Below, in pieces: positions 24,925 through 62,902 of a stretch of 64,000 nt of DNA. Origin of the DNA: Centroscyllium fabricii (lineage: Eukaryota). The stretch's first letter is position 1. The number at the start of each line of letters is the position of its first letter. Position numbers and translations under genes: made by a program. The stretch is taken from the NCBI GenBank assembly GCA_051313645.2, contig JBNRSN020000039.1, forward strand, positions 6,386,001 to 6,450,000. The letters are read 5' to 3'. A model generated the notes under the pieces. That model searched no databases, had not been told where the DNA came from, and worked only from the letters and a program-made list of their open reading frames with translations.

Positions 24925-25161
24925 TGTGGCGGTACGCCGGCTGGCGAATCTGCCTCGGCAGTACTGCGGGGCATAGCCCCGCCCAACGGGTGACGCGCTG
25001 ACGTCACCACGTCTCTCGGCGTGATGAGGTCAAGAGCGGCGGGTAGTTTAAATAAGCCTGCTCCTCGTGGTTCAGTCTCTTCCTCGTTATGTAGTGTGAT
25101 TAAACAAGAGCTAAATGTCTCTCTGGCTCCTTTGTGGTTATTGGGTCCTGCATGCGCTACA
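24925..25161 (+). mobile_element. Gypsy solo LTR with 4-bp TSD TTTC
   Basis: tgtggcgg...gcgctaca with tttc on both sides; homologous to the LTR at 48963-49201. Confidence 0.9.
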
Positions 25162-26655: not shown

Positions 26656-26701
26656 TGCATCAAAGGCAGATCAGAGCGAGCGAAAGTACAGCTGCCTTAA
26701 T
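26656..26701 (-). pseudogene. Leader exon copy 7, start codon lost (ATT) and nonsense at codon 14
   Basis: ATT AAG GCA GCT GTA CTT TCG ... CTT TGA TGC A|gtgagt; HNF1-like site at 26787. Confidence 0.6.
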
Positions 26702-27396: not shown

Positions 27397-28500
27397 TGGG
27401 TTGGCAGATAGAAAACAGAGAGTTGGAATATACGGCATATTTTCTGAGTGGCAGGCGGTGACTAGTTGGCTACCGCAGGGGTCTGTCCTGGGACCCCAGC
27501 CGTTTACAATATATATTAATGATCTGGAACAGGGAATTGAATGTAATATCTCCAGATTCGCGGATGACACCAAACTAGGAGGGGGTGCGGGCTCTGAAGA
27601 GGGAGTCAGGAAGTTACAGGGTGATTTGGATAACTTGGGGGACTGGGCAGAGAGATGGCAGATGCACTATAATGTGGATAAATGTGAGGTTATCCACTTT
27701 GGGGGCAAAAACAGGAGGGTAGATTATTACTTAAATGGCAATAGATTGGGAGATGGGGAGGTGCAAAGAGAACTGGGTGTTCTTGGGCACCAGTAGCTGA
27801 AGGTGAGCACGCAGGTGCAGCAGGCGGTTAGGAAGGCAAATTGTGTGTTGGCCTTCATATCAAGAGGGTTCGAGTATAGGAATAAGGATACCTTACTGCA
27901 GCTGTACAAGGCACTGGTGAGACCACACCTCGAGTATTGTGTACAGTTCTGGTCGCCTCGCCTGAGGAAGCATGTTCTTGCCATGGAAGGAGTGCAGCGG
28001 CGTTTCACCAGGCTGATTCCTGGAATGGCAGGAATGACCTACGAGGAGAGACTATGCAGTCTGGGCTTGTACTCGTTGGAGTTTAGAAAATTGAGAGGCG
28101 ATCTCATTGAGACGTATACTATTCTGAAAGGTCTGGACAGGTTAGATTCAGAGAGATTGTTTCCAATGGCGGGGGAGTCCAGAACCAGGTGCCACGGTCT
28201 AAGAATAAGGGGTAAACCATTTAGGACAGACATGAGGAAGAATTTCTTCACTCAGAGAGTGGTGGGCCTGTGGAATTCCTTGCCACAGAGGGCGGTGGAG
28301 GCCAGCTCATTAAATATATTCAAGAGGGAATTGGATATATTTCATTCAAGCTAAAGGGATTAAAGGTTATGGAGAAAAGGCGGGGACGGGGTACTAGCTT
28401 GCTAAAGATCAGCCATGATCTCATTGAATGGCGGAGCAGGCTCGAAGGGCTGAATGGCCTACTCCTGCTCCTATCTTCTATGATTCTATGATTCAATGAT
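27397..28500 (+). mobile_element. CR1 LINE 3' fragment (RT)
   Basis: PQGSVLGP..IYINDL..ISRFADDTKLGG, LVRPHLEYCVQFWSP, FFTQRVVGLWNSLP; (attctatg)n tail. Confidence 0.95.
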
Positions 28501-30479: not shown

Positions 30480-30525
30480 CAGATTGAAGACTGATCAGAG
30501 TGAGCGCAAGTGAAGGTCACTTCAT
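30480..30525 (-). pseudogene. Leader exon copy 8, disrupted
   Basis: ATG AAG TGA; donor mutated to ttgagt. Confidence 0.55.
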
Positions 30526-30610
30526 CCTGGATCCAGTTGAATGATATCGTCTACATGGTTTCTGTGCGTACACTGAATCAGCTTTAGCAATATGTGGCTG
30601 CACCCAATTT

Positions 30611-30623
30611 GTTAATCATTAAC
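30611..30623. promoter_or_regulatory. Perfect HNF1 palindrome GTTAATCATTAAC
   Basis: Matches GTTAATNATTAAC; 86 nt from the leader ATG at 30525. Confidence 0.6.
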
Positions 30624-33064
30624 CGATTCTCTCATTTGCTAATCATGAGTTTGTTTACCATCAGAACCAGCCCTTGACTTTTGTTCCTGGTTCTGTTTAT
30701 TTTTTTCCACCTGATTTGTCAGGTTACTCCTTTCCTCTCGGCTATTGCCCATCAAACCCCTTTCTCATACTGTGGTATCTGGGAAGTGTCCTCTAATCGT
30801 ATCACACAAAGCTGAATATTCTCATGGCTCTGTGACGCTGTCCAGTGTGGAATCATAACACTCTGTATTATTGCTGCCCGAGTATTTGTACCCTGGCGAC
30901 CACTCCACCCGGCTTGAAGGTCTTACTATCTTGTATTTTTAACATTCCCCCTTTTCTTTTTAGTATTCCTGCCTTTTCTTTTGCTGACATGTCTTCACTT
31001 ATAATGGCCATTCCCAAGATATCATGTTTACTGGGATTATTCAAATTTATGTAATTCAACACATTTCCTTCCTCCTGTTTCAGGGAAGACTCGGCCTCCT
31101 GCGTTCTTAATATTATTCATTTATGTTGGTGTGTTATTATTACTCAATTCTCCTGTCTGTAGCTATAAAACTTCCTTTATTCTTTTTACTCATTCACGTC
31201 ATTTTCATTAAGACGCCACCCACCCCGTAGTTTATTACACAGAATCTCATGGAAATTATTCAAACGCGAAAGACAATTGAATCCACAATGAGTGTTGCTC
31301 ATCATTCTCCTCCCTATCAGTAGAGCTGATACAATGTGCCCCCAATTTCACATATTACATACACTAATCATAAGTTATTTCCCTGTTTATAGTATGAATA
31401 TAAGAAGCAATGAATAAAAGAAAGATCATTTAGAAAGGAATCAAACCGAAAGACAGAAACAGAGAACAAGTTATAAAATAAAAAATGGAAGAAAGAAACA
31501 TGAAACTAAGGAGCAAAGAAAGAACGTAGGAAGGATACAAATAAAAATGTAAAGAAAGAAAGCAAGGTATAAAGAATAAGGCAGTGAGGAATGAATGCAG
31601 GAAGGGAGGTTCGAATGAATAAAGTAATATAGTAGGAATGCGAGAAGGCAAGAAAGGAGGTAAGAATGAATGAAAGAACGGAAGAAAGAAAGAGAGAAAT
31701 AGAAGGAACGATGGAAATAAACCAGACAAGGAAGTAAAGAATGAATGAAACAAGAAAGGACAGGACTGGCGTCCTCCTGTGCACCCCTACACTTACTGCA
31801 GTCTGAAATTGTACATTGGCCTAGATTAGAATCCTCCTGTGCCCCTGTACAGATTCGCCAGCCTGAATTTGTAAATTGGCCTTGGCTCGAGTCCTCCTGT
31901 GCAACGCTACACTTACTGCAGTCTGAAATTACACATTGGTCTGCACTGGCATGCTGTGCCCATCTACAACTTCTCCAGTATGAATTTGTACATTGACCTG
32001 AGCTGGAACTTTCCTTTCTCCAGTCTTAAATTGTAATGTGATTGTTCTTGACTACTCCTGTGCCCATCTACACTTGCTGCATTCTGAAACTGTACGCTGT
32101 CCAGGGCTGGACACCCCCTTGCGCCCCTCTTCAATTTCTCCTGTCGGAAATTGTAAAGTGGCATCAGCTGGAATCCTCCTGTGCACCTCTACACTTTCTC
32201 AATTCTGAAATTCTATATTAGCCTGGGCTGGCAACCTATTGTTCCACTCTGGACAATCTCCAGACTGAAAGTTTACATGTTCCGGTGGTGGAATACTCTG
32301 CTACCCCTCTATACGTTCTCCTGTCTAAAATTGTACATTGGCCTGTGCTGAAGTCCTCCTGTGCACCTCTACAATCACTGCAGTCTGAAATTGTGCATTG
32401 GCTTAGACTGTCATTCTACATTTCGCTCTAAATGATCTCTGGTCTGAAATTGTACATTGGCCTTAGCTATAATCCTCCTGTGCCCCTCTGCACTTTCCCC
32501 AGTCTGAAATTCTACATGGTTGTGGGCTGGCATCCTCTTCCGCCCCTATACACTTTATCCAGTCCGAAACTGTACGTTGTCCTCAGCTGGAATACTCCTG
32601 TGCCACTCTACACTTACTCCAGTCTGCAATTCTACTTTGGCCTGGGCTGGAATACTCCTACATAAGAACATAACAAATAGCAGCAGAAGTAGGCCAATCG
32701 GCCCCTCGAGCCTGCTCCACCATTCACAAGATGATCGCTCATCTTATCATAACCTGAAATCTACTTGCACTCTCCATCCCACCCGTATGCATGTGATCTC
32801 CCGGGAGAGGCGAAACGGCAGAAAAATAAACGAATGGCAAATGTGGGAGAAAAAATCTGGGGAGCTCATTTCCGACCCCTCTTGGCGATCGAAACTCGTC
32901 CAGAAGTTCACATGGCCGATCTAAACCTAGCCTTAAATCCACTTTCCTGACGGCTCACCGTAATCGCTAATGCCCTTTACATCGAGAAAGATGTCTCTGC
33001 TTGAAATGCATTCAATTAGTAGTTTCCACAGCTGTCTGGGGCAGCAAATTCCATAGACCTGCCA

Positions 33065-33875
33065 ATTCAATTCAATTGAATTAGTATTGTCATTGCAGAG
33101 TACGAGTACAATACAATGAGACGAAGACTCTTCGCTCCCGAGTGTAGTGCAAATAAATTACATGCAATTGCATACATTAAAGTACATTTTCAGGTGTGCA
33201 GGTACCGGAGTTTTTTGGTAGCATTCAGGAGGCTGACAGCCCTGGCGAAGAAGCTATTCTTGCGTCTAGTCGCGCGGGTGCAAATTCATCTGTAGCGTCT
33301 CCCGGAGGGCAGGGGGCGTACAGACTGTGGCTGGGGTGTTTGTGGTCTTTAATAATTCTCAGATAACTCAGTAGGCAGCGTTTGAGCTAGCTGCTATCAA
33401 TTGACGGTAGCTGGGTACCGGTGATTCGTTGGGCAGTTTTGACTACCCGCTGCAAGTTCTTCCGGTTCGAGATGGTACAATTTCCATACCAGACTGTGGT
33501 GCAGCTTGTCACTATGCTTTCGATTGTGCAGCGGTAGAATTTGGAGAGGATGCCGGATGACAGCTTGGATTTTTTCAGCTTCCTTAGGATGTACAGGCAC
33601 AGTTGGGCCTTCTTAACCAGAGAGGAGGTGTTTATTGACCAGGAGATGTCTTCCGAGATGTGGACCCCGAGGAACATAAAGCTGGACACCCTTTCCACCT
33701 GAGCCCCTTGGATGATGATGGGTGTGTGTCTTCTGCTTGCAGTACTCCGGAAGTCCATTATGATCTCCTTAGTTTTCTTGGTGTTCAGTGCCAGGTTGTT
33801 GTCCGCACACCATCGGACAAGGCGCTGGATCTCATTCCTGTAGGCTGACTCACCGTTTTTTCTGATCTGGCCAAA
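33065..33875 (-). mobile_element. Rex1/Babar 3' fragment nested in CR1
   Basis: ESAYRNEIQRLVRWCADNNLALNTKKTKEI; (ttgaa)n tail at ~33065. Confidence 0.9.
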
Positions 33876-34567
33876 CACGTTCTGTGTGAACAAATGTCTC
33901 TTCATCTCAGTTTTGAATTGGAAGCCCATTATTTTCAGATTATGCCCCTAGTCCAAGTTCAATGCATCATTGGAAACATCCACAGCGCATCCATCCGATC
34001 ATGACCCTTCACCATCCTATATGTTTCAATATGTTCGCCTCTCATTCTTCTGAACTCAAGCGAGTAGCGGCCCAATCTAGGAATCCACTTCTTACACGTC
34101 AGCCGCCTCTACCACGGTATTAACCAGGTGAAAATTATTTTTACTGCATCGAGCGCAAGTATGTCTTTTTAAAATATTGACAACAGAACTGTAGCAGTAT
34201 TCAAGGTGTGGTCTCACCAATACGCTGTACAACTGCAGCAAGACCCACATTTGTTTATACTCCATCCCATTAGCAATAAAAGCCAACAATCCATTGAGCT
34301 TCCTGATCACCTGCTGCACCTGCATACTAACGTTTTGTGTTTCCTGCACCAGGACACCCATATCCCTTTGCCATTTGAGTACTTTCTAGTTTCTTTCCAT
34401 TAAGATAATTGCTCGCCCTTTTATTTTTCCAGCCAAAGTGCATAACCTCACACTTGTCAGTGTTATATTCCAGCTGCCAAATGTCTGCCCACGCACTTAA
34501 CCTATCTAAGTCCTTTTGCAGGTTTTCAATGACCTCCTTACTCAATACTCTCCCTCCCATATTTGTA

Positions 34568-34902
34568 TCATCTACCTCAAACGCTGCTTACGGAGGTCTC
34601 AGAACATTATTAAAGACCCCACACACCACAGCCACAGTCTGTTCGCCCCCCTGCCCTCCGGGAGACGCTACAGATCAATTCGCACCCGCACAACTAGATT
34701 TCGGAACAGCTTCTTCCAAAGGGCTGTCAGCCTCCTGAACTCTAAAAAGAAACTCCGGTACCTGCATGCCTGATAATGTACTTTTCTGTATGCAATTTGC
34801 ATGTCATTTATTTATTTGCACTACTCTCGGGAGAGTCGAGTCTTCGTCTCGTTGTATTGTACTAGTACTCTGCAATGACAATAAAACTTGAATTGAATTG
34901 AA
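34568..34902 (+). mobile_element. Rex1/Babar short 3' fragment nested in CR1
   Basis: IIKDPTHHSHSLFAPLPSGRRYRSIRTRTTRFRNSFF plus (ttgaa)n tail. Confidence 0.9.
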
Positions 34903-44509: not shown

Positions 44510-45320
44510 TCAGAAGATTGGCAGATTAACGTGAGTATATGCGAGATAATCCACTTTGGCGACAGAAACAGATAGGCAGACTATTAACTGAATGGAAATA
44601 TATTGGATGACGTGGAAGTGCAAAGTGACCTGGGTCTGTCTGTGCAGCATTCGGTGAAGGTAAGTATGCAGGTGCAGCATGCGATGAAGAAGGCAAATGG
44701 TATGTTTGCCTTCATAGCGGAAGATTTTGAGTACAAGAACAAGGATGTCCTGCTGAAGATGTACAGGGCCTTGTTGAGACCACAGCTTGAGTACTGTGTG
44801 TACCTTTGGTCGCCTTATCTGAGGAAGGATGTTCTTGCCATGGAGGGAGTTCAGATAAGTTTCACAAGGCTGATACCTGGGATGGCAGGAATGTCGTATG
44901 AGGAGAGATTCGATTTATTTGGCTTAAATCGATGGAGTTTAAAAGAATGTTGTGGATCTCACCGAAACGTATACAATTCTGACACCTCTGGACAGCTAGA
45001 TGCAGGAAGAATGTTCCCGGTGATCATAGAGCCCGGAACCTGGGGGCACAGTCTAAGGATATGTGGTAGGCCATTCAGGACAGTGGTGTGGAAGAATGTA
45101 TTCATCCAGAGAGCTCTGAACCTGTGGAAATCTCTACCACAGAATATGTTCATTAAATATATTCAATAAGGAGTTAGATATATAACTTAGATCTCAAGTT
45201 AGCAAGGGATATGAAGAGAAGGCAGGTACGGGGTACTGCGTTTGGATGATCAGGTAGGATCTCATCGAGTGATGGAGCAGACTTGAGGGAACGAATGGCC
45301 TCCTCCTGCTATTTTCTTCA
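44510..45320 (+). mobile_element. CR1 LINE 3' fragment terminating the array (another CR1 tail at ~44080-44230)
   Basis: KKANGMFAFI..LRPQLEYCV.LWSPYLRKD..RALNLWKSLP. Confidence 0.88.
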
Positions 45321-45683
45321 ATGTGACTATGCATCCTCTCCTGGGCGGGCTATTTATTCCCGGATGCAGCTCCTGAGGCTCTGCTGCCCTCCCCAGGAGC
45401 ATGTTTATCCGTTGAGCGTAGACAGTGATTAATGGTCTGATTGAGGCCGCAGAACCAAGACTGATGTTGTCCAAAGCCGCCTTCACACCACACTTTCCAT
45501 TAGATCCTCACATAATCCACAAGAGATGGGGATACTCTCAGAGACCCGATTAATCCGGGTCATTTCCTGCCTGCATGCTTCGTTAAGAGAGTAATCAATA
45601 ATATAGAGGGTTAGTGGGAGATGTCCTGGTCAAAGCACCGTCCGCTGGAACAAGTGCCATCCAGAGCGAGCGTCTTCACCCCA

Positions 45684-45770
45684 CCATAAGGATAGTTGAA
45701 ACTTCGGCCTGACATTCTCTCGCTTCTGCAGCTCTTTGCGCCCTTGAGAAGTGAAACATTCGCTCGTAAT
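45684..45770 (-). pseudogene. NLR-like terminal exon, copy A (frame mismatch, stop lost)
   Basis: Acceptor ttttgcag; reads LRAN then, in a shifted frame, FTSQGRKELQKRENVRPKFQLSL; TGG where copy B has TGA. Confidence 0.5.
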
Positions 45771-46963
45771 CTGCAAAAGGAGTGGCAAGTAGCAATCAAT
45801 TGACAGGGGCTCTGTTCAAATATTTTAGATGAAGTGATATGGAATGCAGTTTAGCATTAGATTATATTATAGAAACTATATAGGTGTCATCAACACTTTC
45901 TGGACAGCATTCAGTCCCGCTCTGTCTCTGTCTCCCTCTTTATATATTTCTGTCTCTCTATTTAACATATCTTTACTTGTACCACTCCCGCTCCATTTCT
46001 CCCTCACTGTGCCTTGCCTCAAATCTGAGACTCCATCTCCCACTAACCCTCTATATAATTTAATTTGTCTATCTCTTCAACTCTAATTCTCACTTTATAT
46101 TCCTCTTTCTCAACCTCTCTTTGCCTCCGCTTCTAACTAGCTCCCTCTCTTATTTTATTCCTTTATCCATCATCCTATTTCTCTATTATTTTCATCTCTT
46201 GGCCTCTTTCTGCCTCTATCACTGTCTATATATAGTTTCCCTCGGCCTCTATTTCTGACTCTGTATTTGTCTCTGTGTTTGTGAGTCACTCTATCTGTCT
46301 AAGTCTCTATCACTGTTTTCCATTTTTTATGTCCCTTCAACCTCTCCGTTTCTCTTTCCCACCTTTCTCTTGCCATGTCTCTGTCATTCTCTCCGCATCG
46401 CTATTTAAGTATGTGTTTGTCTACCACTTTCTCTGCAGTCGACTATGTTACTCTGTCCCTCTCCCTCCCTTATTTCCCATTTATATATCTCATTTTCTCC
46501 TTCTCTTTCTCTAATTCTCCCCATTATCTGTATTTCTCTGTCTGTTTCTCTCCCTTCCTCTATCTCTCTGCTTTGCTCTACATTTCTCTCTTTCACTAAC
46601 TTCCTATCTGTGACATTCGATATTCCCTTCTTTCTATTCCTAACTTCCAAGTAATATTTTTCTTTCTGTATTTGCAGAAGCAGCTGCCCCTATCTTATTT
46701 TTTCTCTCTATCTCTATAGCCTGATAGGTCAAGGGCGTGGCAATGGGAGAGATTTAAAAATAAAAAGAATCAGAGATTGTGCTTTGCATCCCAATATATT
46801 ATTAGAGCCTAAGCTATCATAATGGAATGGAAATGTGCGCTCAGTTATATTAGAAACATGTTCTCGGTTTGTTACTCAAGACAAGATTGATTACAGATTT
46901 TATTTGAGAATTATCCGCAGATATTAAATTAAATGCAAAGCAAAAAATAAACAAATCTCTTAC

Positions 46964-47131
46964 GTTACTTTTTCCAGATTGGCACAGTTCCGTACGAGCT
47001 GGCGGAACTTTTCTTGAGATTTTTCTGTGAATCCATTAAACGAGAGGTGCAGGACTCTCAGCGTTTCTTTCACACAAAGAGCAGAAACAAGTTCCTCACA
47101 GCACTCGTGTGTCAGGTAATTGCTCTTCAGG
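46964..47131 (-). CDS. 168-nt ribonuclease-inhibitor-type LRR exon of an NLR (NACHT-LRR)-like gene, copy A
   Basis: caacag acceptor, gtaaga donor, phase 2-2, 2x28 aa: LKSNYLTHECCEELVSALCVKETLRVLHLSFNGFTEKSQEKFRQLVRNCANLEKV. Confidence 0.8.
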
Positions 47132-48209
47132 CTGTTGGACAATGGATAAGCGAATCAGCGAATGAGATACAGAGGGAGAGTGATAGAAGCAGAGAGATTG
47201 ATACAGAGAGTGAAAATAGATAGAGTGATAGTGAGAGAGGCAGAGAGACAGAGAAGGGGAGAGCGAGACGGTGGAGGGAGAAAGTGACAGAGAGAGAGAC
47301 AGAAAGAGCGGCAGTGAGACACAGAGAATGGAAGAAGGGGGAGGAAAGAGACAGAGAGAGACAGAAAGAGCGGCAGTAAGACAGAGAGTGAGAGAGAAGG
47401 GTGAGGAAAGAGACAGAGAGAGACAGAAAGAGCGGCAGTAAGACAGAGAGTGAGAAAGAAGGGTGAGGAAAGAGAAAGAGAAGGACAAAAAAGCAAAAGT
47501 GAGACAGAGTTTAAGGGAGAAGAAGTGATAGACAGAGAGGGAGAGCGAATGAGAGAGGGAGAGAAGAGATAGGGAGATAGATAATTAAGGGGAGGAGAGA
47601 GAGTCAGAGAGAGGTAAAGAACCCTGAGAGAGAGTGTGGGAGCGAAGAGATAGAGAGCAACAGAAGGTGACATGAAGACCAAGAGATTTAAAGGTAGGCA
47701 GTCACAGTTGGAGGAAGAGAATGGTTGAAAAAATGTTATAAACAAACCGTCCAGGATAAAATGAGGGAGAGAGAAAGAGAGAGAGTGCATGTAACAGTGA
47801 ATAAAAGAAGTAGTTTCAGAAATGCCAGAATAATGATCTACATCCAGAACTAGCTGCACATATAGACAAGATGATCCACTACAGAAAAAAGCATCGGCAG
47901 GAACCCAAAAAAATGCTGGACGAATCCAATCCTCTCAGTCTACTCTCAATCAACAGCAAATTGACCGTCCGCAGCGGTTCAAGAGGTTGTGTCACCAACC
48001 ACGTCAAAAGGGCAAGTAGAGATGTGCTATAAATGCTGGAATTGCCAGCGACGCACACATCCCAGGATAAAATAAAAATAATCTCGCAAGACAATGTCGT
48101 CTGAGAGGCTGTAAGTACAGATGACATGATGAGGACCGAGACACTGCTAAAACGGCTAAAATATTCCATAATAAGAGAGAACAGATGACGTGGACACCGG
48201 CACTGTCAG

Positions 48210-48962: not shown

Positions 48963-51900
48963 TGTGGCGGCACACTAAGACTGACGAATCCGCCTCGAGA
49001 GCTGCGGGGCATAGCCCCGCCCATCGGGTGACGTGATGTCGTCACCACCATCCCTCGGTGTGATGAGGTCACTAAAGCGGGCCTTTTAAATAAGCTCGCT
49101 CCTCGTGTTTCAGTCTGTTCCTTCCTCACTGTAATGTATTAAACAAGTGTTTCTCTGTCTCTCTGGCTCCCGCGTGGATCTTGGGTCCTGCAAGCGCTAC
49201 GCTGGTGACCCCGACTTGGAACGACTCCCAAGGAGAAAAAGCAGCTACAGGACCAAAGACCAAGCAGCCTCAGGACACTTTAAAAGTTAAACATGACTAC
49301 AAGGAACCAAGCTTCTCAAACACAAGGACTTCGCCAGAACTTCGGACACAGACTTACACTACCGGAGTTCTGGGAGCAGCGCCCAGCGGCCTGGCTTATG
49401 TGCATCGAAACCAGCTGCCGCACACATGGCGTCCAGGGTGATGACAGCTACTACTTGGTCTTTTGGACACTACCGCAATCGACGATCAATCGGATGTGGT
49501 CGAAGCTACAGCGTGTGCCCACAGCGGGCAGGTATGAGTTCCTTAAGGCCGCGCTGCTAAAAAAAATTACCCCCTCCCAATTTGAGCGCGACTGCCAGCT
49601 CCTTAACCTCCCCAAACTCGGGGATGCAGACCCATCGGGACTTTGGGGGCAGATGCAAGCGCTTACCGCAGATCCCCCCTCCCTGTTCCGCACCGTTTTC
49701 CGCCTGAAAATACCCCGCTCCATCAGACCGGCCCTGGCGGCCCTCTGCCACTGGAACGGGGACAAACTAGCCGAGGAAGCCGACAGGCTCACGGCGGCCG
49801 AGCGCACCCGCTCCAACTCGTGCGACCCTAATGCAGCATCCATTGAGCGCAACCACTCGCCCCCCAGGTCCAACCCAACGCCTGTACCCAGGGCCCCGTG
49901 CCCACCCACACGGATCGATAATAAAGCACACCGCTGCGTACAGCCCTGTGCATTTAAGCCACGGCCCACACCAGCCCCCACTATGTCTGTAGGACACACA
50001 GGAGCACTGCTCTTTGTCACAGACAGCGGCACAGGCCTCCGGTTCCTCTGCAACACAGGCGCACAGCACAGCATCGTGCCAGCCTCCCCAGCAGAAGCCA
50101 AACAATGCACCCGGGGCCCGCCACTCGCAGCGGCCAATGGCTCCAATATAAAAAAGTACGGCACCCGCAAGCTCACATTTAAGCTCGCCGGCCACATGTA
50201 TCACTGGGACTTTGTCACAGCCCAGTTCACTTCACCCCTCCTCGGGGCAGATTTCCTCTGCGCCCACGGCCTGCTGGTTGACATGACCCGGCCCTGCCTG
50301 GTCGACATCAATAACATGCTCCACAGGGCCCGCAGTCCTGGCCCACGCGGCGGCACAATGCCGCTCCCGAAACTCTGACGCATGCAGCACGCTCCTCGCA
50401 GAGTTCCCCACCCTTACCAAACCCACGTTCACCGCCCGCCGGGCCAAACACGGGGTAGAGCATTTTATAACCACCACTGGCCCTCCTGTCCATGCCCACG
50501 CCCGCAGGCTAGACCCGGCCAAACTGGAGATCGCGCACACAGAGTTCCGCACCATGGAACAACTCGGCATAATCCGCCGCTCCAACAGCCCCTGGGCCTC
50601 TCCCCTACACATCACCCCCAAGCCGGGCGGGGGTTGGCTCCCCTGCGGCGACTACCGCCGCCTAAACATTGCCACTACCCCAGATAGGTACCCCGTACCC
50701 CACATCCAGGATTTCTCCGCCAGACTAGCAGGCTGCACGATCTTATCTAAGACCGACCTGGTGCGTGGCTACTTGGACGACATCCTCGTGGCCAACACCC
50801 CACCCCCCAGAAACACCTCCTGCACCTCAGGACCATGTTACAGCGCCTGGTCGAACACGGCCATATATTAAGCCCCTCAAAAGGCAAATTCGGCCTCGAG
50901 ACCATAGACTTCCTCGGCCACCGCATCTCCCAAACCGGGGCCATACCCCTGCCCTCCAATGTGCAGGCAGTTCAGTAATTCCCCCGCCCGCACTCCATTA
51001 AGGGGCTGCAGTAATTCCTGGGGATGGTTAATTTTTATAATCGCTTTATCCCAGGAGCAGACGCTCTCATGGCCCCCCTATACCAGGCCACATGCGGGCA
51101 GTCCGGCAAAACTGCGGTAGAGTGGACGGCCGATGCCGCCACCACCTTCACCACAACCAAAACCGCCCTGGCCATCACCACCCTCCTAGCCCACACCAGG
51201 CCCAACGCCAGAGTGGACCTCACCACTGACGCCTCCGACCACGCTGTCGGGGCTGTCTTTCAACAGTGGACCGGCAACTCTTGGCAGCCCCTGGCCTTTT
51301 TCAGCCGGCAACTTCGGCCCCCAGAGGTCAAGTACAGCTCCTTCGACAGGGAGCTCCTCGCTCTCTACCTCGCAGTGCGCCATTTACGCTTCCTCTTGGA
51401 GGGCCGTCCCTTCAAAGCCTTCGTCGACCGCAAGCCACTCACCTTCGCTATGGCCAAGGTCACCGAACCCTGATCGGCCAGGCAGCAGCGCCAGCTCGCG
51501 GCTGTGTCGGTGTTCACTACCGACATTCAGCATATCTCTGGCCGTGACAACGTGGTTGCTGACTGCCTCTCACGCCCCGCAAGTAACGCCGCCCAAATGG
51601 CGGTCAATTATGGCAAGCTGGCAGCAGACCAGCTGGCCGACCCAGACCTGCTCGACCCAGCAGCCAACCTCCCAGGCCTACACCTGGACAAAATCGCACA
51701 TGGCCCCGCTGCCACAGTCGTCCTGGACCAGTTTTCGATCGCCACCTGGGTCGCCCGTTTCGGCGTGCCCACCGACATCACGTCGGACAGAGGACCCCAG
51801 TTTACGTCAGCACTATGGGCGGCTATCGCCCGCGACCTCGGGGTAACCTTACAACGAACCACCGCATACCACCCACAATCTAACGGGCTCTGTGAACGCT

Positions 51901-52042
51901 TCCACCACTCTAGGAAAGCATCCCTGTGGGCCAGCCTCAAAGTCGCGTCATGGACCGACCGTCACCCATGGGTACTCCTCGGGCTGCGCTCGGCAGTCAA
52001 AGAGGACCTAAACACCTCGGCAGCAGAACACGTCTACGGCCA
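48963..52042 (+). mobile_element. Ty3/Gypsy LTR retrotransposon (CsRn1-like): 5' LTR, PBS, decayed gag-pol, 3' truncated
   Basis: LTR 48963-49201; PBS tggtgaccccgac 49203-49215 (tRNA-Trp); gag FWEQRPAAWL; protease FLCNTGAQHS and LLGADFL; RT SPWASPLH, CGDYRRLN, YLDDIL; RNase H TDASDHAVGAV, FDRELLA; integrase SDRGPQF, YHPQSNGLCERF. Confidence 0.92.
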
Positions 52043-52456
52043 GATGGAGCAGACTCGTGGGAACGAATGGCCTACTCCTGCTATTTTCTTCAATGTGTCC
52101 ATTCATCCTCTCCTGGGCGGGCTATTTATACCCGGATGCAGCGCCTGAGGCTCTGCTGCCCTCGCAAGGAGCATGTTTATCCGTTGAGTGTAGACAGTGA
52201 TTAATGGTCTGGTTGAGGCCGCACAAACTAGACTGATATCGTCCAAAGCCGCCCTTCACACCACACTTTCCACAAGATCCTCACATAATCCACAAGAGAT
52301 GGGGATACTCTCAGAGACCCGATTAATCCGGGTCATTTCCTGCTTGGATGCTTCTTTAAGAGAGTAATCAATTTTGACCAACACCAGTTAACTCTGTCCT
52401 GGTCAAAGCACCGTCCGCTGGAACAAGTGCCATCCAGAGCAAGCTTCTTCACCCCA

Positions 52457-52543
52457 TCATAAGGATAGTTGAAGCTTCGGTCTGACATTCACCAGCTTCT
52501 GCAGCTCTTTGCGCCCTTGGGAAGTGAAACATTCGCTCGTAAT
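52457..52543 (-). pseudogene. NLR-like terminal exon, copy B
   Basis: ttttgcag acceptor; ..FTSQGRKELQKLVNVRPKLQLSL-TGA; 87 nt, one nt short for the phase-2 upstream donor. Confidence 0.55.
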
Positions 52544-53740
52544 CTGCAAAAGGAGGGGGAAATTACAATCAGTTGACAGGGGCTCTGTTCAAATATTTTA
52601 GATGAAAAGATATGGAATGCAATTTAACATTAGATTATATTATAGATTAACTATGTAGGTGTCATCAACACTTTCTGGACAGCATTCAGTCCCGCTCTGT
52701 CTCTGTCTCCCCCTATATATATTTCTGTCTCTTTATTTAACATATCTTTACTTGTACCACTCCCGCTCCATTTCTCCCTCACTGTGCCTTGCCTCAATTC
52801 TAAGACTCCATCTCCCACTAACCCTCTATATAATTGAATTTGTCTATCTCTTTAACTATAATTCTCACTTTATATTCCACTTTCTCCCTCTCTCTTTCCC
52901 TCCGCTTCTAACTAGATACCTCTCTTAATTTATTCCATTATCCATCATCCTATTTCTCTATTATTTTCATCTCTTGGCCTCTCTCAGCCTCTATCACTCT
53001 CTATAAATAGTTTCCCTCGGCCTCTATTTCTGACTCTGTATCTGTCTCTGTGTTTGTGAGTCTCTCTATCTGTCTACGACTCTATCACTGTTTTCCATTT
53101 TTATGTCCCTTCAACCTCTCCGTTTCTCTCTCCCACCTCTCTCTTTCGATGTCTCTGTCATTCTCTCTGTATCGCTATTTAAGTGTGTGTTTGTCTACCA
53201 CTTTCTCTGCAGTCGTCAATGTTACTCTGTCCCTCTCCCTCCCCTATTTCCCATTTATATATCTAATTTTCTCCTTCTCTTTCTCTAATTCTCTCCATTA
53301 TCTGTATTTCTCTGTCTGTTTCTCTCCCTTCCTCTATCTCTCTGCTTTGCTCTACATTTCTCTCTTTCACTAACTTCCTATCTGTGACATTCGATATTCC
53401 CTTCTTTCTATTCCTATCTTCCAAGTAATATTTTTATTTCTGTATTTGCAGAAGCAGCTGCCCCTATCTCACTTTTTTCTCTCTATCTCTATAGCCTGAT
53501 AAGTCAAGGGCGTGGCAATGGGAGAGATTTAAAAATAAGAAGAATCAGAGATTGTGCTTTGCATCCCAATATATTATTAGGGCCTAAGCTATCATAATGG
53601 AATGGAAATGTGCGCTCAGTTATATTAGAAACATGTTCTCGGTTTGTTACTCAAGACAAGATTGATTACAGATTTTATTTGAGAATTATCCGCAGATATT
53701 AAATTAAATGCAAAGCAAAAAAAAAAAAAAAATCGCTTAC

Positions 53741-53908
53741 GTTATCTGTTCCAGATTGGCACAGTTCAGTACGAGCTGGCGGAACTTTTCTTGAGATTTT
53801 TCTGTGAATCCATTAAACGAGAGGTGCAGGACTCTCAGCGTTTCTTTCACACAAAGAGCAGAAACAAGTTCCTCACAGCACTCGTGTGTCAGGTAATTGC
53901 TCTTCAGG
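53741..53908 (-). CDS. 168-nt LRR exon of an NLR-like gene, copy B
   Basis: caacag acceptor, gtaagc donor; ends RQLVLNCANLEQI. Confidence 0.8.
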
Positions 53909-54649
53909 CTGTTGGAGAATGGATAAGCGAATCAGCGAATGAGATACAGAGGGAAAGTGATAGAAGCAGAGAGATTGATACATAGAGTGAAAATAGATAG
54001 AGTGATAGAGAGAGAGGCAGAGAGACAGAGAAGAGGAGAGCGAGACGGTGGAGGGAGAAAGTGACAGAGAGAGAGAGAGACAGAAAGAGCGGCAGAGAGA
54101 CACAGAGAATGGATGAAGGGGGAGGAAAGGGACAGAGAGAGACAGAAAGAGCGGCAGTAAGACAGAGAGTGAGAGAGAAGGGTGAGGAAAGAGACAGAGA
54201 AAGACAAAAAAGCAAAAGTGAGAGAGAGTTTAAGTGAGAAGGAGTGATAGATAGAGAGGGAGAGCGAATGAGAGAGGGAGAGAAGAGATCGGGAGATAGA
54301 GAATTAAGGGGAGGAGAGAGAGTCAGAGAGAGGTAAAGAACCCTGAGAGAGAATGTGGGAGGGAAGAGATAGAGAGCAACAGAGGGTGACATGAAGTCCA
54401 AGAGATTTAAAGTTAGGCAGTCACAGTTGGAGGAAGAGAAAGATTGATTTTTTTTTATAAACAAACCGTCCAGGTTAAAATGAGGGAGAGATAAAGAGAG
54501 AGAGTGCATGTAACAGTGAATAAAGAAAGTAGTTTCAGAAATGCCAGAATAATGATCTACATCCAGAACTAGTTGCACATCTAGACAAGATGATCCACTA
54601 CAGAAAAAAGCATCGGCAGGAACCCGAAAAAATGCAGGACGAATCCAGG

Positions 54650-55224
54650 ACACTCCTTCCCCCTCATTATCTCTGTTCTTCTCTCTCTCGCCCTCCGATC
54701 TCAGTCAGTCCTCCTCTCTCTCCGATCTGCTCTCCATTTCCCCTCTTATCTCCATTCCTCTCTGATATACTCTCTCCCCATCTCCTCTCCATCTGACCTC
54801 TGATTTCGTTCCACCTTCTCCTCTCCGTACCTCATCCGATCTCCTCTCTCACTCCGATCTCCTCTCAGCTCACTTCCCCTCTCATCTCCCATCTCTTCCC
54901 CTCCGCTCACCAGGCTCTCTCTGACATCCGCCATCTGCACTTTGATCACCTTCTCTCTCCTATCTGTTCTCCTCCCCTCCCTTCACCTCGCTCCCTCCGA
55001 TTCCATCACACTCCCCTAGGATCTCGTCTCTCCCTTGTGCTCATTCTCGCTCTCCGATCTCCACTCACCCTCTCTAATCTCCTCTCTTTCACCAATCCCT
55101 TTTCCCTTCCACTATGTTCTTCTCTCTCTCCATCTGCTCTCTGTGCGATCTCCTCTCCAGCTTCCACTCTGATCTCCTCTATCTCCCTTACAATCTCAAC
55201 TCTCTTTCCGATCTCATCTCTCTC
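54650..55224. repeat. CT-rich low-complexity tract (continues at 59206-59470)
   Basis: (ctctcc)/ccgatctc motifs; split by the Rex1 insertion. Confidence 0.85.
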
Positions 55225-57470
55225 AAGAGATTCAAGATCATTTTATTCGCCATATGTAACTAGTACAATGGAATGCTTACTCCCCATTCACTCCCACACT
55301 TATGAAATGAAGAAAAGCACGAGGTAAAAAGGTAAAAACAAGTGTAAATATAGTAACAAATTAGTAAACAGAGAAACAGATAGATAACAATTGCCGTTAG
55401 CAGTTCAGTAGGCGCACTGCCTGTGGATAAAAACTGTTATTGAATCTGCTGGTCCTGGTTCGGATGCTGCGGTACCGACGGCCGGTTCGCAGGAGGGAGA
55501 ACAGTTCGTGCCCAGGGTGGTTGGGGTCTTTGATAATGGCACGGGCCTTGTTCCGACATCTAGTCTGGAAGATCTCTTCGATTGATGGGAGTTTACACCC
55601 GATGATTTTTCCTGCCGTCTTCACAACCCTCTGGATGGCCTTCCTGTCCTGAACAGTGGTATTGCCATACCACACAGTGACGCCACCTGACAAGACGCTC
55701 TCTATGGTTCCGCGGTAGAAGTTCACCAGCAATTGTGTACTTATACCGCATTTCCTCAGGCACCGCAGAGGGTAGCGGTGCTGGTGAGCCTTCTTCAGCA
55801 TTTCATTGGTGTTATAATTCCAAGTCAGATCGTCAGAGATCTGCAGACCTAGGAATCGAAAGCAGCTGACTCTTTCTACCGGTAACCCGCCTATTGTGAT
55901 TGGTCGGTGGTTCTTTTGATGGCGTCTGAAGTCCACGATGAGTTCCTTCATCTTGCTGACGTTCAGGGCAAGGTTGTTATCCTTGCACCATCCCATCAGC
56001 TGAACTATCTCATCCCTGTACTCTGTCTCGTCCTCATTACTGATCAGGGCAATTACCGTGGTGTCATCGGCAAACTTTATTATTCGGTTGTTGCTGCGTT
56101 GGGCTGTACAATCGTTTGTGAACAGAGAGTACAGCCGAGGACTGAGGCAGCAGCCCTGTGGCGCTCCGGTATTGAGGACCAGTGTGGAGGAGGTGTTGTT
56201 CCCTATTCTCACCACTTGAGGCCTGCCGGTCAGGAAGTCCAGAATCCAGTTGCAGATGGGGGTGCCCAGACCTAGGTCCTTCAGTTTCAGGATTAACTTG
56301 GAGGGAACAATAGTATTAAATGCAGAACTGTAGTCGATGAACATCAGTCTGACATAAGTCTCCCTTTTATCCAGATGTTCTAGGACAGTGTGTAGTGTTA
56401 GGGGGACTGCATCGTCCACAGACCTGTTCGCCCTGTATGCAAACTGGAACGGATCCAAGGAATCAGGGATGATGCTGTTTATATGTGTCATCACCAGCTT
56501 TTCCAGGCACTTCATGGCTATAGATGTTAGGGCTATCTGTCGATAGTCATTGAGACCCGTTACCTTGGTCTTCTTTGGTAGCGGCACAATGGTCATCTCC
56601 TTAAAACACACTGGCACGACAGACTGCTGCAGTGAGATATTAAAAATGTCTCTGAACACAGGAGCCAGCTGGTCTGCACATGTCTTGAAGTCGCGGGATG
56701 GCACTCCGTCTGGACCGGCTGCCTTTCGTGCCTTCACCCTCCTGAATGTTTTGCAGACCTCGGACTCAGTCACCTGTAGTCTGTAGTCCTCTGGATGACA
56801 AGGTTTTTTTTTGGCCTGCTCAGTATTTTCCCTATCAAAGCGAGCATAGAAGATATTCAGCTCGTCCGGTAGGGAGGGATCAGTGTTGGTGACACCCGCT
56901 GATCTTTCCTTGCAGTTGGTGATGGCCCTCAGTCCCTGCCACATGCGTCTGGCATCGGAGCCCCCGCCGTACTGGGACTCCAGTTTATCCCTGAAGTCAA
57001 TTTTAGCTATTTTTATCGCTCTAATAAGGTCATACTTGGCCTTCCTGTAGACTTCACTCTCCCCTGTTTTAAAAGCAGAACGCCGATCTCTTAATTTGTT
57101 GTAGATGTTAGAATTCATCCACGGTTTGCAGTTGGGAAATGAACGTACAGACTTGGTAGGGATGCAATCATCTACCAATTTGTTGATGTATCCATTGACA
57201 TGGTCTGCATACTCATCGAGGTCTGGGTTCTTAAATACACTCCAGTCTGTTTTTTCCAGCCCGCCCTGTAGTTTGAGTTCATTGTCCGTTGTCCAAATTA
57301 TTTTTGTTTTCATTATTGCTGGTGTATTTTTTAGCTTCTGTTTGTAAGCAGGAAGTAGAAGCACAGAGGCATGGTCTGACTTGCCGAAGCCCGGCCGAGC
57401 AGTGGCACGGAAGGCATGTTGAATTGTGGTATAGCACTGGTCCAGATTTTTTCCATTTCTTGTTGGACAG
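55225..57470 (-). mobile_element. Rex1/Babar LINE, 3' part (end of APE + full RT, open frame)
   Basis: Within the 716-aa ORF: CPTRNGKNLD, FGKSDH, DPFQFAYR, FIDYSSAFNTI, GAPQGCCLSP, IKFADDTT, RFNNSFYPQAVRLLN; aataaa and a short tail at ~55225-55250. Confidence 0.93.
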
Positions 57471-59205
57471 AGTGCTGTGTCACTTCCGGTGCTGCAGAAG
57501 GAACACGGCACTGGAGAAGAGCTGACGTGTCTCTGTGAAGCTACCACACTTTTGTTTTTTAACTTTCTACCTTTTGCCTTTTACTTTTACTTTTTAACTT
57601 TTTAACTTTATAACCTGAAACAAAAGACGTCGCCTTTTGGGACAACCTGCCTTACCTCTTGCCGTTTTCTGGGCTTGCTTGCCTTGGGACTGGCTGTCGG
57701 CTATACTTGTTATCTTTTTACCTTTACTTTGTAACTTTTTAACTTATAACCTGAAACAAAAGACGTCGCCTTCTGGGACAACCTGCCTTACCTCTTGCCA
57801 TTTTCTGGGCTTGCTTGCCTTGGGACTGGCTGTCTCGGCTTTTTTCAGCTGCTACCGCTCTGGTCCTGCCTGCCTTGTCGTCTTTTGCGTGGATGCCTCT
57901 CTCCCGCTTGGTTGCCGCTGGTCGTTCTCCTCTTGGCCGTTGCTTTGCCTTGCCTGTGGAAACTCAACTGCTGCTGTCGCTGCCGCTGCCTGTGGAAATT
58001 CAACTGCTGCTGTCGCTGCCGCTGCTGCTGCCGCTCTGGACCGCCTGCCTTGTCGTCTGCGTGGATGCCTCTCTTCTGCTGGGCTGCTGCTGGTCGCTCT
58101 CTTCTTGGCCGTTGCCTTGCTTGCTGGAACTCAGCTGCTGCTGCCGCTGCTGCTGCCGCTCTGGACCGCCTGCCTTGTCGACTGCTGCATGGATGCCAGC
58201 TGCTGCTGGTCGTTCTCCTCTTGGTCGTTGCCGTTGCTTTGCCTGTTGCTGCTGCTGCCGTTCTGGACCTGTCTGCATTGCCGTCGGATCAACGCTTCTG
58301 CTTGGCTGCCTCATCTGCTATGGGTCTGTTGCTACTGCCTGGTTGCCGCACCGCTGTTTTTTTAAATTGTAATATTTCCATAGTAATATTTAAGGCTCTA
58401 CTTATTCATTGTAATATTTTTTTAATTATAATATGTAAAGCTATTTATTTATTATATATTTTTTTAATTTTTATTAACTAACTAACTATTAACATGCTTG
58501 GTCTGAGCGCGAAAGTTGTCAGATACAGTCGCCAAGTCCTCTTGGAATTAAGGAAGATGTCAGCCGTTTTTTATACTAAAACAGAGTTGACAACAAACAA
58601 GTTAATGAAGGATTTACCTGTGGAGGTACTGAATGTCAACAGAGTGCAGTGGGGGCAGAGGAGCCCACCCCTCGACCAGAACCATCACGCTCATGGAAGT
58701 AGGTGCAAATGGGCCCACAGGCGGGGGTCACGGGCAGGCCTACTAGTCAGATTGCGCCGACGGGGTTGGGAACCAGCCTAGCCCAGCATTCTCCTCGCAA
58801 ATGTCCAATCTTTGGTCAACAAGATTGACGAGCTGAATTGCCGTATCGCCTCACAGCGGGTCATTAGGGAGTGCTGTGCAATGATCCTTACAGAGTCGTG
58901 GTTAACCTCAATGATACCTGACGAGGAGGTGCAGCCCCATGGTTTTGCTTTGTTCAGGACCGATAGAACATCTGACTCTACAGGGAAGAGCAGAGGCGGC
59001 GGTGTCTGCTGCCTGATTAACAACAAATGGTGCACAGATGTACAGGTACTGTCACAGCACTGTACCGCCAACTTGGAACTATTAACAATCAAGTGTCGCC
59101 CTTTTTACCTACCAAGGGAAATCTCAGCTATCCTCATGTCTGCTGTCTACATCCAACCATGAGCCAATGAAAACACTGCATTGAGCGAACTTTACAGTGA
59201 GTACA
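57471..59205 (+). mobile_element. Inverted 5' part of the same Rex1/Babar LINE (5' UTR + APE N-terminal half)
   Basis: RYSRQVLLELRK, PSILLANVQSLVNKIDEL, LTESWLT, GKSRGGGVC, CRPFYLPRE, AVYIQP; the whole composite is flanked by a 15-bp TSD gatctcatctctctc (55210-55224 and 59206-59220). Confidence 0.85.
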
Positions 59206-59524
59206 GATCTCATCTCTCTCTGCGATCTTCTATCATTGCGAACTCCTTTCCATCCACGCTGTCATCACCGCTCCCTCTCGTCTCTCCTCTCTCTCCGCTA
59301 CGACCAACTCGTTCTCTCCATTTTCATCTCCCTCCTTCCGATTTCCTCTCTCTGCAATCTCCTGCCACTGTCTCCGATCTAATTTGTCCATCCCCTGTCT
59401 CACCAACTTCAATCCCTCTCTCCACTTACTTCGTCACTCTCTCAACACTGGCTAACCATGATCTTCCCCTTCTCCAACCCCAACAATCATCGGACCAACT
59501 CCGCACTGAGCCGATTACAGCGTG

Positions 59525-59901
59525 CAGGGCCGGCTCAAGGTATTTGGGGGCCCCAAACAAGGTATTTTGGGGGCCCCAAACAAGGTATTTGGGGGCCCCA
59601 AACAAGGTATTTTGGGGGCCCCAAACAAGGTATTTTGGGGGCCCTTTCTGTTTGTGTCTGTAGATATGTGTGCACAAGCACAAGGGGGGCTTCTTCTGCC
59701 GGCACTAAAACCTACTGTACCCAGTATATAATTATGCACCAGTTATGTACCAGTACATTGTGCACAATATTGTGCAGGGGAAATGTATGTCTATCATGGG
59801 CTATAATTTAAGAATGAAAACACTTAGGCCTATGAGGGGCCCTCTCAAATCGGGGGCCCTAAACAAATGTTTACATCGTTTATATGGTAGGGCCGGCCCT
59901 G
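59525..59901. mobile_element. hAT-type MITE with internal 21-22-bp tandem repeat
   Basis: TIR cagggccggc / gccggccctg; 8-bp TSD acagcgtg; about 5 copies of caaggtattt(t)gggggccccaaa at 59536-59645. Confidence 0.9.
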
Positions 59902-60029
59902 ACAGCGTGGCCCACGTGCAGTCGCCTGTATACAGCGCAAATGTGTGTAAGCGCATCGGGTGTGCATGTGTCGCAGCTTTTAAAAGCACGCAGTGCAGAA
60001 ACCCACAATCATCCTCATGCAAATATTCA

Positions 60030-61499: not shown

Positions 61500-61880
61500 A
61501 ATCCAGTGACGTCTGTGAACAGTGAGCAGTCCACCCCTACAGATTTGCTTTGCCAACGAACGTTGTATTGTCAGCAAATTGTATACTTTACAGTCGGTCT
61601 GCTGTACTATGTCATTGATATAGGTTGTAAAAAGCTGAGCCACAAATACAGCTCCTTGGGGTACTTCAGGAGTTACAGTGAGCCAAACAAAAAATGACCC
61701 GTTTATTCCTACTTGCTCTTCTATGTCCGCTAACCAAGCCTCAATCAATGCGACAATAATATCCCTAATACCACGAGGCCCAATGTTTTGCGGCACCTGA
61801 TCGAATGACTTTTTAAAAATAACATCTACTGGTTCCCCCTTACACATTTAAATCTACTAAAAAATTTGTCAAACACGAAT
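61500..61880 (-). mobile_element. Degraded CR1 RT fragment
   Basis: KSFDQVP..IEAWL..VGINGSF..VPQGAV..LFTTYIND. Confidence 0.75.
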
Positions 61881-61882
61881 TC

Positions 61883-62902
61883 CAACTGGACCCTGGACAT
61901 CCTAACCAACAGACAACCGTCTGTGAAGTTAGGAAACCTCACATCCCCGCCCACTTACCCAAACACGGGGGCCCCACAAGGCTGTGTGCTGATCCCCCTC
62001 CTCTAGTCCCTCTTCACCCACGACTGTGCGGCTATCCATGGCTCCAACATGATCATCAAGATTCTGGAATACACCACGGTGGTTGGCCAGATCAGCAACA
62101 ACGATGAGTCAGCCTACAGTAATGCGATTCAGCGCCTTGTGGGATGGTGTGCTGACAACAACCTGGCACTGAACACCAAGAAAACCAAGTAGATCCTAGT
62201 GGTCTTCCGAAAGACTAAAAGCAGAAGACACCCCCCCGCCCCCCCCATCTTCTTCCAAGGGCTGAGGTGGAAAGTTTGTCCAGCTTCAGGTTCCTCGGGG
62301 TCCACATCTCGGAAGATCTCTCCTTGTTATTAAACATTTCCTCTCTGATATAGGAGGCCCAACAGCGCCTGTGTTTCATAAGCAAGCTGAAAAAAGCAAA
62401 ACTGACATCCGACATCCTCACCAACTTCTACCGCTACTCAATCGAAAGCATACTAACAAGTGCATCACAGTCTGCGATGGAAACTGCACCATCTCGCACC
62501 GGAAGGCCCTGCAGCGGGTAATCAAAACTACCCAACGAATCCCCGGCACTTAGCCTCCGTCAATTGAATGCAGTTACCTTAAACGCTGCCTACAGAGGTC
62601 TGTGATCATTAATAAAGTGCCCACACACCCAAGCCATAGTCTGTTCGCCCCCTGCCCTCCGGGAGACGCTACAGATCAATTAGCACCCCCACGACTCGAT
62701 TCATGAGCAGGTTTTTTCCCAGTGCTGTCTGCCTCCTGAACTGTAGCAAAAAACTCAAATATCTGCGCAGCTGAAATATACTTTACTGCATGCAGTTGTA
62801 TGTAACTTACTTGCAGTACTCTCGGCAGCGCCGAGTCTTCGTTTCGTTATATTGTACTATTACCCTGCAATAAAAATAAAATTTGAATTGAATTGAATTG
62901 AG
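61883..62902 (+). mobile_element. Rex1/Babar 3' fragment, degraded
   Basis: Same family as 4526-5423 (gccccacaaggctgtgtgctg...), (ttgaa)n tail at ~62883-62901. Confidence 0.88.

What the first reader, a model, noticed from the sequence alone, without database searches (positions are those of the whole stretch)
55210..59220. 5'-inverted near-full-length Rex1/Babar LINE with a 15-bp TSD: twin-priming signature outside L1
Seen: the 3' part (APE end + RT + tail) is on minus and the 5' UTR + APE N-terminal half is on plus. They meet at ~57470, the APE segment containing GDFN is missing, and the composite is bounded by gatctcatctctctc direct repeats. Established: this geometry is the twin-priming product described mainly for mammalian L1. 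Inference: a Rex1/Babar element used twin priming, and the inverted strand reached the native 5' end, which is rarely preserved.
Basis: partly seen in the sequence, partly recalled or inferred. Interest (0 to 1): 0.7.

Follow-up and report, generated by a model that had tools for sequence, protein, structure and literature searches.

The report
Front-flipped Rex1 jumping gene copy
One dead copy of a Rex1-type jumping gene, in what looks like a shark or ray genome, landed with its front 1.7 kb flipped, the scar that human L1 elements often leave when both cut DNA ends prime copying of one RNA, which suggests that an unrelated LINE family can do this too.

Summary
Confirmed. A 3,981-nt Rex1-like LINE copy sits between exact 15-nt direct repeats (55210-55224, 59206-59220). 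Its 3' part (end of endonuclease, RT, tail) reads on minus; its leader and endonuclease front read on plus; they meet at 57470-57472. In one public run an empty homologous site holds the 15-mer once, so it is a true target-site duplication. Uninverted family copies in all four runs laid continue past one breakpoint, and in three past the other, into the missing stretch, about 102-106 nt. Both halves group with the same three homologues. Best reading: twin priming (0.8). Not shown: that 57472 is the native 5' end; no listed contig spans the inversion junction or the right junction; priming at the right junction is ambiguous (4 extra or mutated bases). In the papers read, 5' inversions are an L1 trait with one Nimb exception; I found no Rex1 case (limited library). 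A survey of 92 related loci gave one doubtful second case. The scan noted twin-primed LINEs before on other DNA (dinoflagellate, L1/Tx1). A known mechanism in a new, ORF1-less clade: one dead copy, modest interest.

The parts
55210..55224 (.). Target-site duplication, copy next to the element's 3' tail (15 nt)
   Evidence: empty site in run X5
55225..55396 (-). 3' untranslated region ending in a short CTTGAAT-type repeat tail, no poly(A)
   Evidence: other copies' tails seen as loose ends at 55249; folding no better than shuffles, z +1.2
55397..57471 (-). Non-inverted part of ORF2: end of AP endonuclease, RT (about 55838-56578), PF09004 domain (about 55697-55822); 690 codons without a stop
57470..57472 (.). 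Inversion junction; 57470-57471 (GA) still match uninverted family copies and may also belong to the leader (0-2 nt overlap, untested)
   Evidence: loose ends behind 57471 in X1, X2, X9
57472..58493 (+). Inverted part: about 1-kb leader, repetitive in all four runs, with a 136-nt unit x1.9 (57579-57834) and GC-rich repeats (57848-58290); no Pfam match in its three long plus frames
58494..59201 (+). Inverted part: ORF2 start and front half of the AP endonuclease, 236 codons with stops at 58779 and 59160
   Evidence: 59160 differs from all family contigs in all four runs
59202..59205 (+). Four bases (TACA) where family copies read ATCA: extra bases added at priming, or a two-base change in this copy
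   Evidence: loose ends behind 59201 in 4 of 4 runs
59206..59220 (.). Target-site duplication, copy next to the inverted part (15 nt)
54650..55209 (.). CT-rich target tract, left part; a ~90%-identical homologue without the insertion is in runs X1, X2, X5
59221..59500 (.). CT-rich target tract, right part

Best explanation
One Rex1-type LINE RNA of about 4.1 kb was inserted by twin priming. The element's endonuclease cut the two strands of a CT-rich tract 15 nt apart (inferred from the duplication, which is shown). The first cut end paired with the repeat tail (2-nt GA match, seen) and primed a 2,247-nt cDNA. Before that cDNA was finished the second cut end, a 15-nt 3' overhang ending in GATC, paired inside the endonuclease region of the same RNA and primed a second cDNA of about 1,730 nt towards the RNA's 5' end (inferred). 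The RNA between the two was lost (about 102-106 nt, shown by spacing), the two cDNA ends were joined head to head with 0-2 nt overlap, and host repair filled in (inferred). The copy was dead on arrival, because ORF2 is split and the leader points away, and it has since gathered private changes.
For: Shown: exact 15-nt flanking repeat, single in an empty homologous site (X5, 2 contigs); X1 and X2 each hold a diverged-flank contig that ends exactly at 55224, and X2 a contig crossing the tail junction (55120-55257, 33 nt inside the element, 2 differences). The inverted part starts within 4 nt of the duplication at its most downstream point, and the two parts are complementary with a short gap: the residue spacing across the gap is 36 in 31 of 32 homologues where the pattern matched, of 43 examined, and loose ends of uninverted copies cover its first 10 and last 9 codons in frame. 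Both halves have the same three nearest homologues and similar depth on either side of the gap in X1 (23,640-33,408). The family RNA reads GATC exactly at the right breakpoint, the complement of the overhang's last four bases; GATC occurs at 11 of 3,977 positions of the copy, roughly a 3% coincidence within 5 nt (my estimate). Known: this is the structure of twin-primed L1 (PMC2912911, passages; PMC12016303 section 8), and L1 inversions come with 10-20-nt duplications peaking near 15 (PMC4245944).
Against: No contig listed spans the inversion junction or the right junction (table 8 shows 32 of 15,606 pieces), and X1/X2 may be the window's own source. The right junction is not the clean product of GATC priming: 4-5 bases intervene, or else the element runs to 59205-59206 with a two-base change and 1 nt of overlap. 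No contig bridges the gap, so same-subfamily rests on trees of homologues only 50-60% identical, on loose ends and on depth. The native 5' end is not established: the leader lacks the ATGGCG start seen in 14 of 33 published ray Rex1 consensus starts read. Four other Rex1-like copies in the window show neither inversion nor a convincing duplication. The empty site is about 90% identical, so probably a paralogue or another species, not the sister allele.
Confidence: 0.8

Rival explanations
1. Two-template variant: the second cut end primed on a second RNA of the same family (or the RT jumped), so the structure is the same but the halves come from two molecules.
For: Opposite-orientation chimeras of L1 with other RNAs are ascribed to priming from both ends (bioRxiv 10.1101/2025.02.02.635956, passages). 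The 4 odd bases at 59202-59205 repeat TACA(G) found 9 nt upstream, as slippage or re-priming would.
Against: The two parts end only about 102-106 nt apart on a 4.1-kb RNA with no overlap, which one template explains and two templates would meet only by luck.
Confidence: 0.09
2. Ordinary full-length insertion, later inverted in its 5' part by break repair with loss of about 100 nt.
For: The region is duplicated and rearranged (91%-identical block pair 45271-47928 / 52043-54647); the copy is not brand new (at least 23 positions, among the 40 of 359 rows shown, differ from nearly all family contigs in all four runs).
Against: One breakpoint would have to fall within 4 nt of the duplication and leave it whole; no inverted repeat joins the two breakpoints apart from one 20-nt, 80% pair offset by 140 nt (I18).
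Confidence: 0.04
3. Assembly artefact: a repeat was scaffolded with its front half reversed.
For: The window has 1,132 N and is repeat-rich; the two diagnostic junctions were not seen in the listed contigs.
Against: A misjoin would not be expected to drop about 100 nt of non-repetitive endonuclease sequence, add four bases, and still end on an exact target duplication; the tail junction is in X2.
Confidence: 0.04
4. Two independent insertions of the same family, head to head, with a chance direct repeat.
For: The family is very abundant (depth thousands of times the flank's in X1) and the target is low-complexity.
Against: The empty site has the 15-mer once and skips both halves together; the plus part has no 3' end or tail; no other pairing in the tracts reaches 15 nt.
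Confidence: 0.03

Closest known systems
5'-inverted (twin-primed) human L1 insertions (model of Ostertag and Kazazian 2001, not held; known here through PMC2912911 passages and PMC12016303 passages and section 8)
   Same: Duplication - inverted upstream part - junction - non-inverted 3' part - tail - duplication; 15-nt duplication (L1 peak about 15, PMC4245944); short gap between the two cDNAs; short possible pairing at the internal priming site.
   Different: Rex1-type protein, no ORF1 found, short-repeat tail instead of poly(A), CT-rich target instead of TTTT/A; both cDNAs long (2,247 and about 1,730 nt against germline L1 medians of 571 and 751), together near full length; gap about 102-106 nt whereas 132 of 287 L1 cases lie within 20 nt.
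Single 5'-inverted zebrafish Nimb-2_DR insert in chicken DT40 cells (PMC4245944, passages and section 12)
   Same: 5' inversion by a non-L1 fish LINE with a fairly long duplication (Nimb peak about 12 nt).
   Different: That was one event in a cell assay, in another clade; this is a germline genomic copy of a Rex1-type element. The L2-clade ZfL2-1 (5-nt duplication) gave none in that work.
Rex1/Babar non-LTR retrotransposons (PMC6274825 passages; PMC13343379 passages and supplement table 2, first 400 letters of each entry)
   Same: One ORF with AP endonuclease and RT, no ORF1, 3' UTR followed by short oligonucleotide repeats, 100-500-nt leader repeats in ORF1-less elements; the end of the visible part of HypSab_Rex1-1 matches 58746-58901 at 32 of 52 residues (compared by hand).
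   Different: None of the passages read mentions 5' inversion in Rex1; this leader (about 1 kb) is longer than most and none of three 5' motifs matched any visible entry.
cDNA snap-back junctions of R2-based transgene insertion (PMC11371274 passages)
   Same: Target DNA joined to antisense element sequence.
   Different: Snap-back copies the cDNA already made, so the antisense part duplicates downstream sequence; here it is upstream sequence absent from the non-inverted part.

Membership tests
Twin-primed 5'-inverted LINE insertion | Whole composite bounded by one target-site duplication, single in the empty site | tested here: met
   (empty site is a ~90% homologue, not the sister allele)
Twin-primed 5'-inverted LINE insertion | 3' part with tail in normal orientation; upstream part reversed with its most downstream point next to the duplication | tested here: met
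Twin-primed 5'-inverted LINE insertion | Small gap or overlap between the two cDNAs on the RNA | tested here: met
   gap about 102-106 nt
Twin-primed 5'-inverted LINE insertion | Second cut end complementary to the RNA at the internal priming site | tested here: inconclusive
   GATC present at the breakpoint in family copies but 4-5 bases intervene; alternative reading gives 1 nt
Twin-primed 5'-inverted LINE insertion | Short overlap at the inversion junction | tested here: inconclusive
   0-2 nt; depends on the native 5' end, which was not seen
Twin-primed 5'-inverted LINE insertion | Both parts from one element subfamily | tested here: met
   at lineage level only: same three nearest homologues, in-frame loose ends, similar depth
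Twin-primed 5'-inverted LINE insertion | Junctions present in single DNA molecules | tested here: inconclusive
   tail junction crossed by one X2 contig; the other two not among the pieces listed
Rex1/Babar clade | AP endonuclease upstream of RT in one ORF | tested here: met
   RT PF00078; endonuclease by blastx to homologues, several of which carry PF03372; the split halves give no Pfam endonuclease hit by themselves
Rex1/Babar clade | No ORF1 | tested here: met
   leader frames are low-complexity, no Pfam match in 3 of 3 scanned; feature from PMC13343379
Rex1/Babar clade | 3' UTR ending in short oligonucleotide repeats | tested here: met
   feature from PMC6274825
Rex1/Babar clade | RT groups with named Rex1 references in a tree | not testable with these tools
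   no named Rex1 RT could be fetched; homologues carry no clade names; only the hand comparison with HypSab_Rex1-1

The most novel reading that the evidence does not exclude
Rex1 elements of sharks and rays regularly cut long (about 15-nt) staggers and make twin-primed 5' inversions at appreciable rates without any ORF1 protein, so inversion is set by overhang length and not by L1- or mammal-specific factors; their very many copies would then be a natural data set for how the second strand is primed.
Probability: 0.15. Interest if true: 0.62.

Novelty: new variant of a known kind. Interest (0 to 1): 0.42.

Why it matters
A cell-assay study concluded that 5' inversion depends on L1 features and human host factors and proposed that a 10-20-nt overhang is needed (PMC4245944). 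A germline copy of an ORF1-less Rex1-type element, in a probable cartilaginous fish, with an inversion and a 15-nt duplication fits the overhang rule and argues against an L1-only or ORF1-dependent process. It is one dead copy, so it shows possibility and not frequency; it makes a cheap genome-wide test obvious (inversion rate against duplication length in Rex1 copies). It also preserves an unusually long Rex1 leader.

Tried and rejected
No whole genome was held, so copies could not be surveyed in the host. The duplicated block at 45271-47928 stops at the equivalent of 54647 and gives no empty site. No RNA holder listed. First metagenome scan with the endonuclease front alone: 59 stretches, 0 relatives; viral contigs: 38 stretches, 0 relatives. 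Survey: 71 metagenome loci (best 80 kept of 439) plus 21 loci from genome contigs; 1 of 92 has a minus-strand ORF2 match, and 1 of the 18 that are truncated with at least 300 nt upstream; many loci look like collapsed repeat contigs, so these are not counts of insertions. That locus, L051, has the same head-to-head layout but its halves have different best relatives and its 3' end is off the contig, so I do not count it as support. No convincing duplication at the ends of 4 other Rex1-like copies in the window. Three short leader motifs found 0 matches in the published consensus table, of which only the first 400 letters per entry are visible; the full sequences might identify the family and its 5' end. 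3' UTR folding is no better than shuffles. Snap-back rejected by geometry. Literature: 10 searches; 'twin priming' with Rex1 gave 1 paper (a human review, listing only); the 40 listed of 106 papers holding 'twin priming' are, by title, nearly all on mammalian L1 or mammalian genomes; two searches returned nothing relevant; PMC5389967, PMC2718515, PMC6007223 hold the term only in references and PMC2666801 not at all. Subscription journals are mostly not held, so absence of a Rex1 report is not established.

Full report
Observation. An exact 15-nt direct repeat lies at 55210-55224 and 59206-59220 and nowhere else in the window. Between the copies, a minus-strand frame open for 690 codons (55400-57469) holds an RT domain and PF09004, and plus-strand frames at 58494-59201 hold the ORF2 start and the front of the endonuclease, with two stops. 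Against full-length fish homologues the minus part begins at about residue 244-290 and the plus part ends 37-40 residues earlier; the missing stretch holds GDFN. The host looks like a cartilaginous fish; that is my inference from the CR1-like fragments and the Rex1 likeness, not a tool result. No whole genome was held.

Is the repeat chance? The flanks are CT-rich and a 14-nt match exists between them, but none of 144,689 other end/start pairings reaches 15 nt. The decisive test came from laying contigs of four public runs on 54950-59480. Run X5 has 2 contigs joining 55209 to 59206, skipping 3,996 nt with 15 letters fitting both sides: an empty site with one copy of the target. Its flank is about 90% identical to the window and shares variants with a second flank type in X1 and X2, whose contigs stop exactly at 55224, so it is probably a paralogue or a related species. 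X1 and X2 also hold the window's own right flank without differences, and X2 has a contig across the tail junction (33 nt inside). These two runs may be the window's source. No listed piece spans the other two junctions, but only 32 of 15,606 pieces are shown.

Breakpoints. Uninverted family copies appear as loose ends. Behind 59201, in 4 of 4 runs, they go on in frame (ISKVQNRYPE); behind 57471, in 3 of 4, they give the codons before the minus part (MPKYFQNIF) (my translation). Homologues space these two points by 36 residues in 31 of 32 where the pattern matched, of 43 examined, so about 106 nt are missing, or about 102 if the four bases 59202-59205 belong to the element. Those bases read TACA where the family reads ATCA: either extra bases (they repeat a word 9 nt upstream) or a two-base change followed by a 1-nt overlap with the duplication. 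The family RNA reads GATC at this point, complementary to the last four bases of the second cut end; GATC occurs at 11 of 3,977 positions. I take this as suggestive and not clean. At the inversion junction 0-2 nt may be shared. At the tail, the repeat's last GA overlaps the duplication.

One element? In separate trees with 43 homologues each half groups with P0037, P0098 and P0102 (support 0.89 and 0.94), and bit scores of the halves correlate (Spearman 0.39, p 0.009). Depth in X1 is alike on both sides of the gap (the tool warns that depth is no copy number). This shows one lineage, not one source copy. The leader 57472-58493 is repetitive in all four runs, far above the flanks, and varies in repeat number among copies, so it belongs to the family; it has a 136-nt unit, like the 100-500-nt leader repeats described for ORF1-less CR1-group elements (PMC13343379, passages), and no Pfam match. 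Whether 57472 is the very 5' end is not shown: it lacks the ATGGCG start of 14 of the 33 ray Rex1 consensus starts I could read, though the summed length, about 4,083 nt, is at the top of their range.

Mechanism. Shown: one duplication around both parts, reversed upstream part with its downstream end at the duplication, short gap. Inferred: cuts 15 nt apart, first cDNA from the tail, second cDNA primed inside the same RNA by the other cut end, loss of the RNA between, end joining. This is twin priming as described in PMC2912911 (passages) and PMC12016303 (passages and section 8); the original paper was not held. I give it 0.8. A two-RNA variant (0.09), a later inversion (0.04), misassembly (0.04) and two chance insertions (0.03) are the rivals. 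Snap-back synthesis (PMC11371274, passages) would duplicate downstream sequence and does not fit.

Family. One ORF with endonuclease and RT, no ORF1 and a short-repeat tail are the Rex1 features in PMC6274825 (passages) and PMC13343379, which also reports high Rex1 coverage in rays. A published stingray Rex1 consensus matches 58746-58901 at 32 of 52 residues by hand. A tree with named Rex1 RTs could not be made, so membership is likely and not formally shown.

Novelty. PMC4245944 (passages and section 12) found 5' inversions among more than 200 new inserts only for human L1 in human cells, save one zebrafish Nimb-2_DR insert, none for the L2-clade ZfL2-1, and proposed that a 10-20-nt overhang is needed. 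This copy's 15-nt duplication fits that idea. In human data 18-22% of L1 insertions are inverted. Ten searches showed no Rex1 case, in a library that lacks most subscription papers. The scan's own notes list twin-primed LINEs in a dinoflagellate and in an L1/Tx1-like nest (unchecked), and nothing like this sequence.

How common? Of 92 related loci from host DNA in metagenome and genome collections, one, L051, has the same head-to-head layout, with an intact ORF2 front on minus and RT on plus from about residue 478; it is 1 of 18 loci that are truncated with upstream sequence visible. Its halves have different best relatives and it ends inside the RT, so it may be two elements or a misjoin. Four other Rex1-like copies in the window are plainly truncated, with no convincing duplication. 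So the evidence is one good case.

Verdict. Real, well supported, a known mechanism in a clade where I found no report of it, and notable for lacking ORF1 and for being near full length. It is a single dead copy with no sign of function. Interest 0.42; new variant of a known kind.

Noticed in passing
window 59517-59909: A 377-nt element (59525-59901) with terminal inverted repeats starting CAGGGCCGGC, an exact 8-nt flanking repeat (59517-59524, 59902-59909) and an internal 23-nt tandem array; read. Looks like a hAT-type miniature element (label recalled).
   Followed up: no
window 45271-47928 and 52043-54647: A 2.7-kb block present twice in direct orientation at 91% identity, with decayed gag-pol-like frames of an LTR retrotransposon between the copies at about 49284-52148 (label from motifs, recalled).
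   Followed up: partly
window 18521-21624, minus: Another LINE with endonuclease (PF03372/PF14529) and a 701-codon open RT frame (PF00078) in two overlapping frames, only 22% identical to the Rex1-type protein.
   Followed up: partly
window about 4510-5420 (+), 13810-14700 (-), 33060-33880 (-), 61880-62900 (+), 34570-34750: Four 5'-truncated copies and a fragment of a second Rex1-like subfamily with TTGAA-repeat tails, 65-70% identical to the studied copy.
   Followed up: partly
window 1766-39685: Many degenerate arrays of a 60-nt unit alternating with GAAA-rich tracts.
   Followed up: no
L051:100-1747: Possible second 5'-inverted Rex1-like copy: ORF2 front on minus up to a putative 5' start near 824, RT part on plus from about 830; halves have different best relatives, no tail on the contig.
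   Followed up: partly
L072-L092: 21 loci in records titled as bacterial genomes encode Rex1-like proteins, most simply animal host DNA in those assemblies.
   Followed up: no
window 57848-58290: Family copies differ in the number of GC-rich leader repeats (joints 57906-57987 and 58042-58282 in several runs).
   Followed up: no
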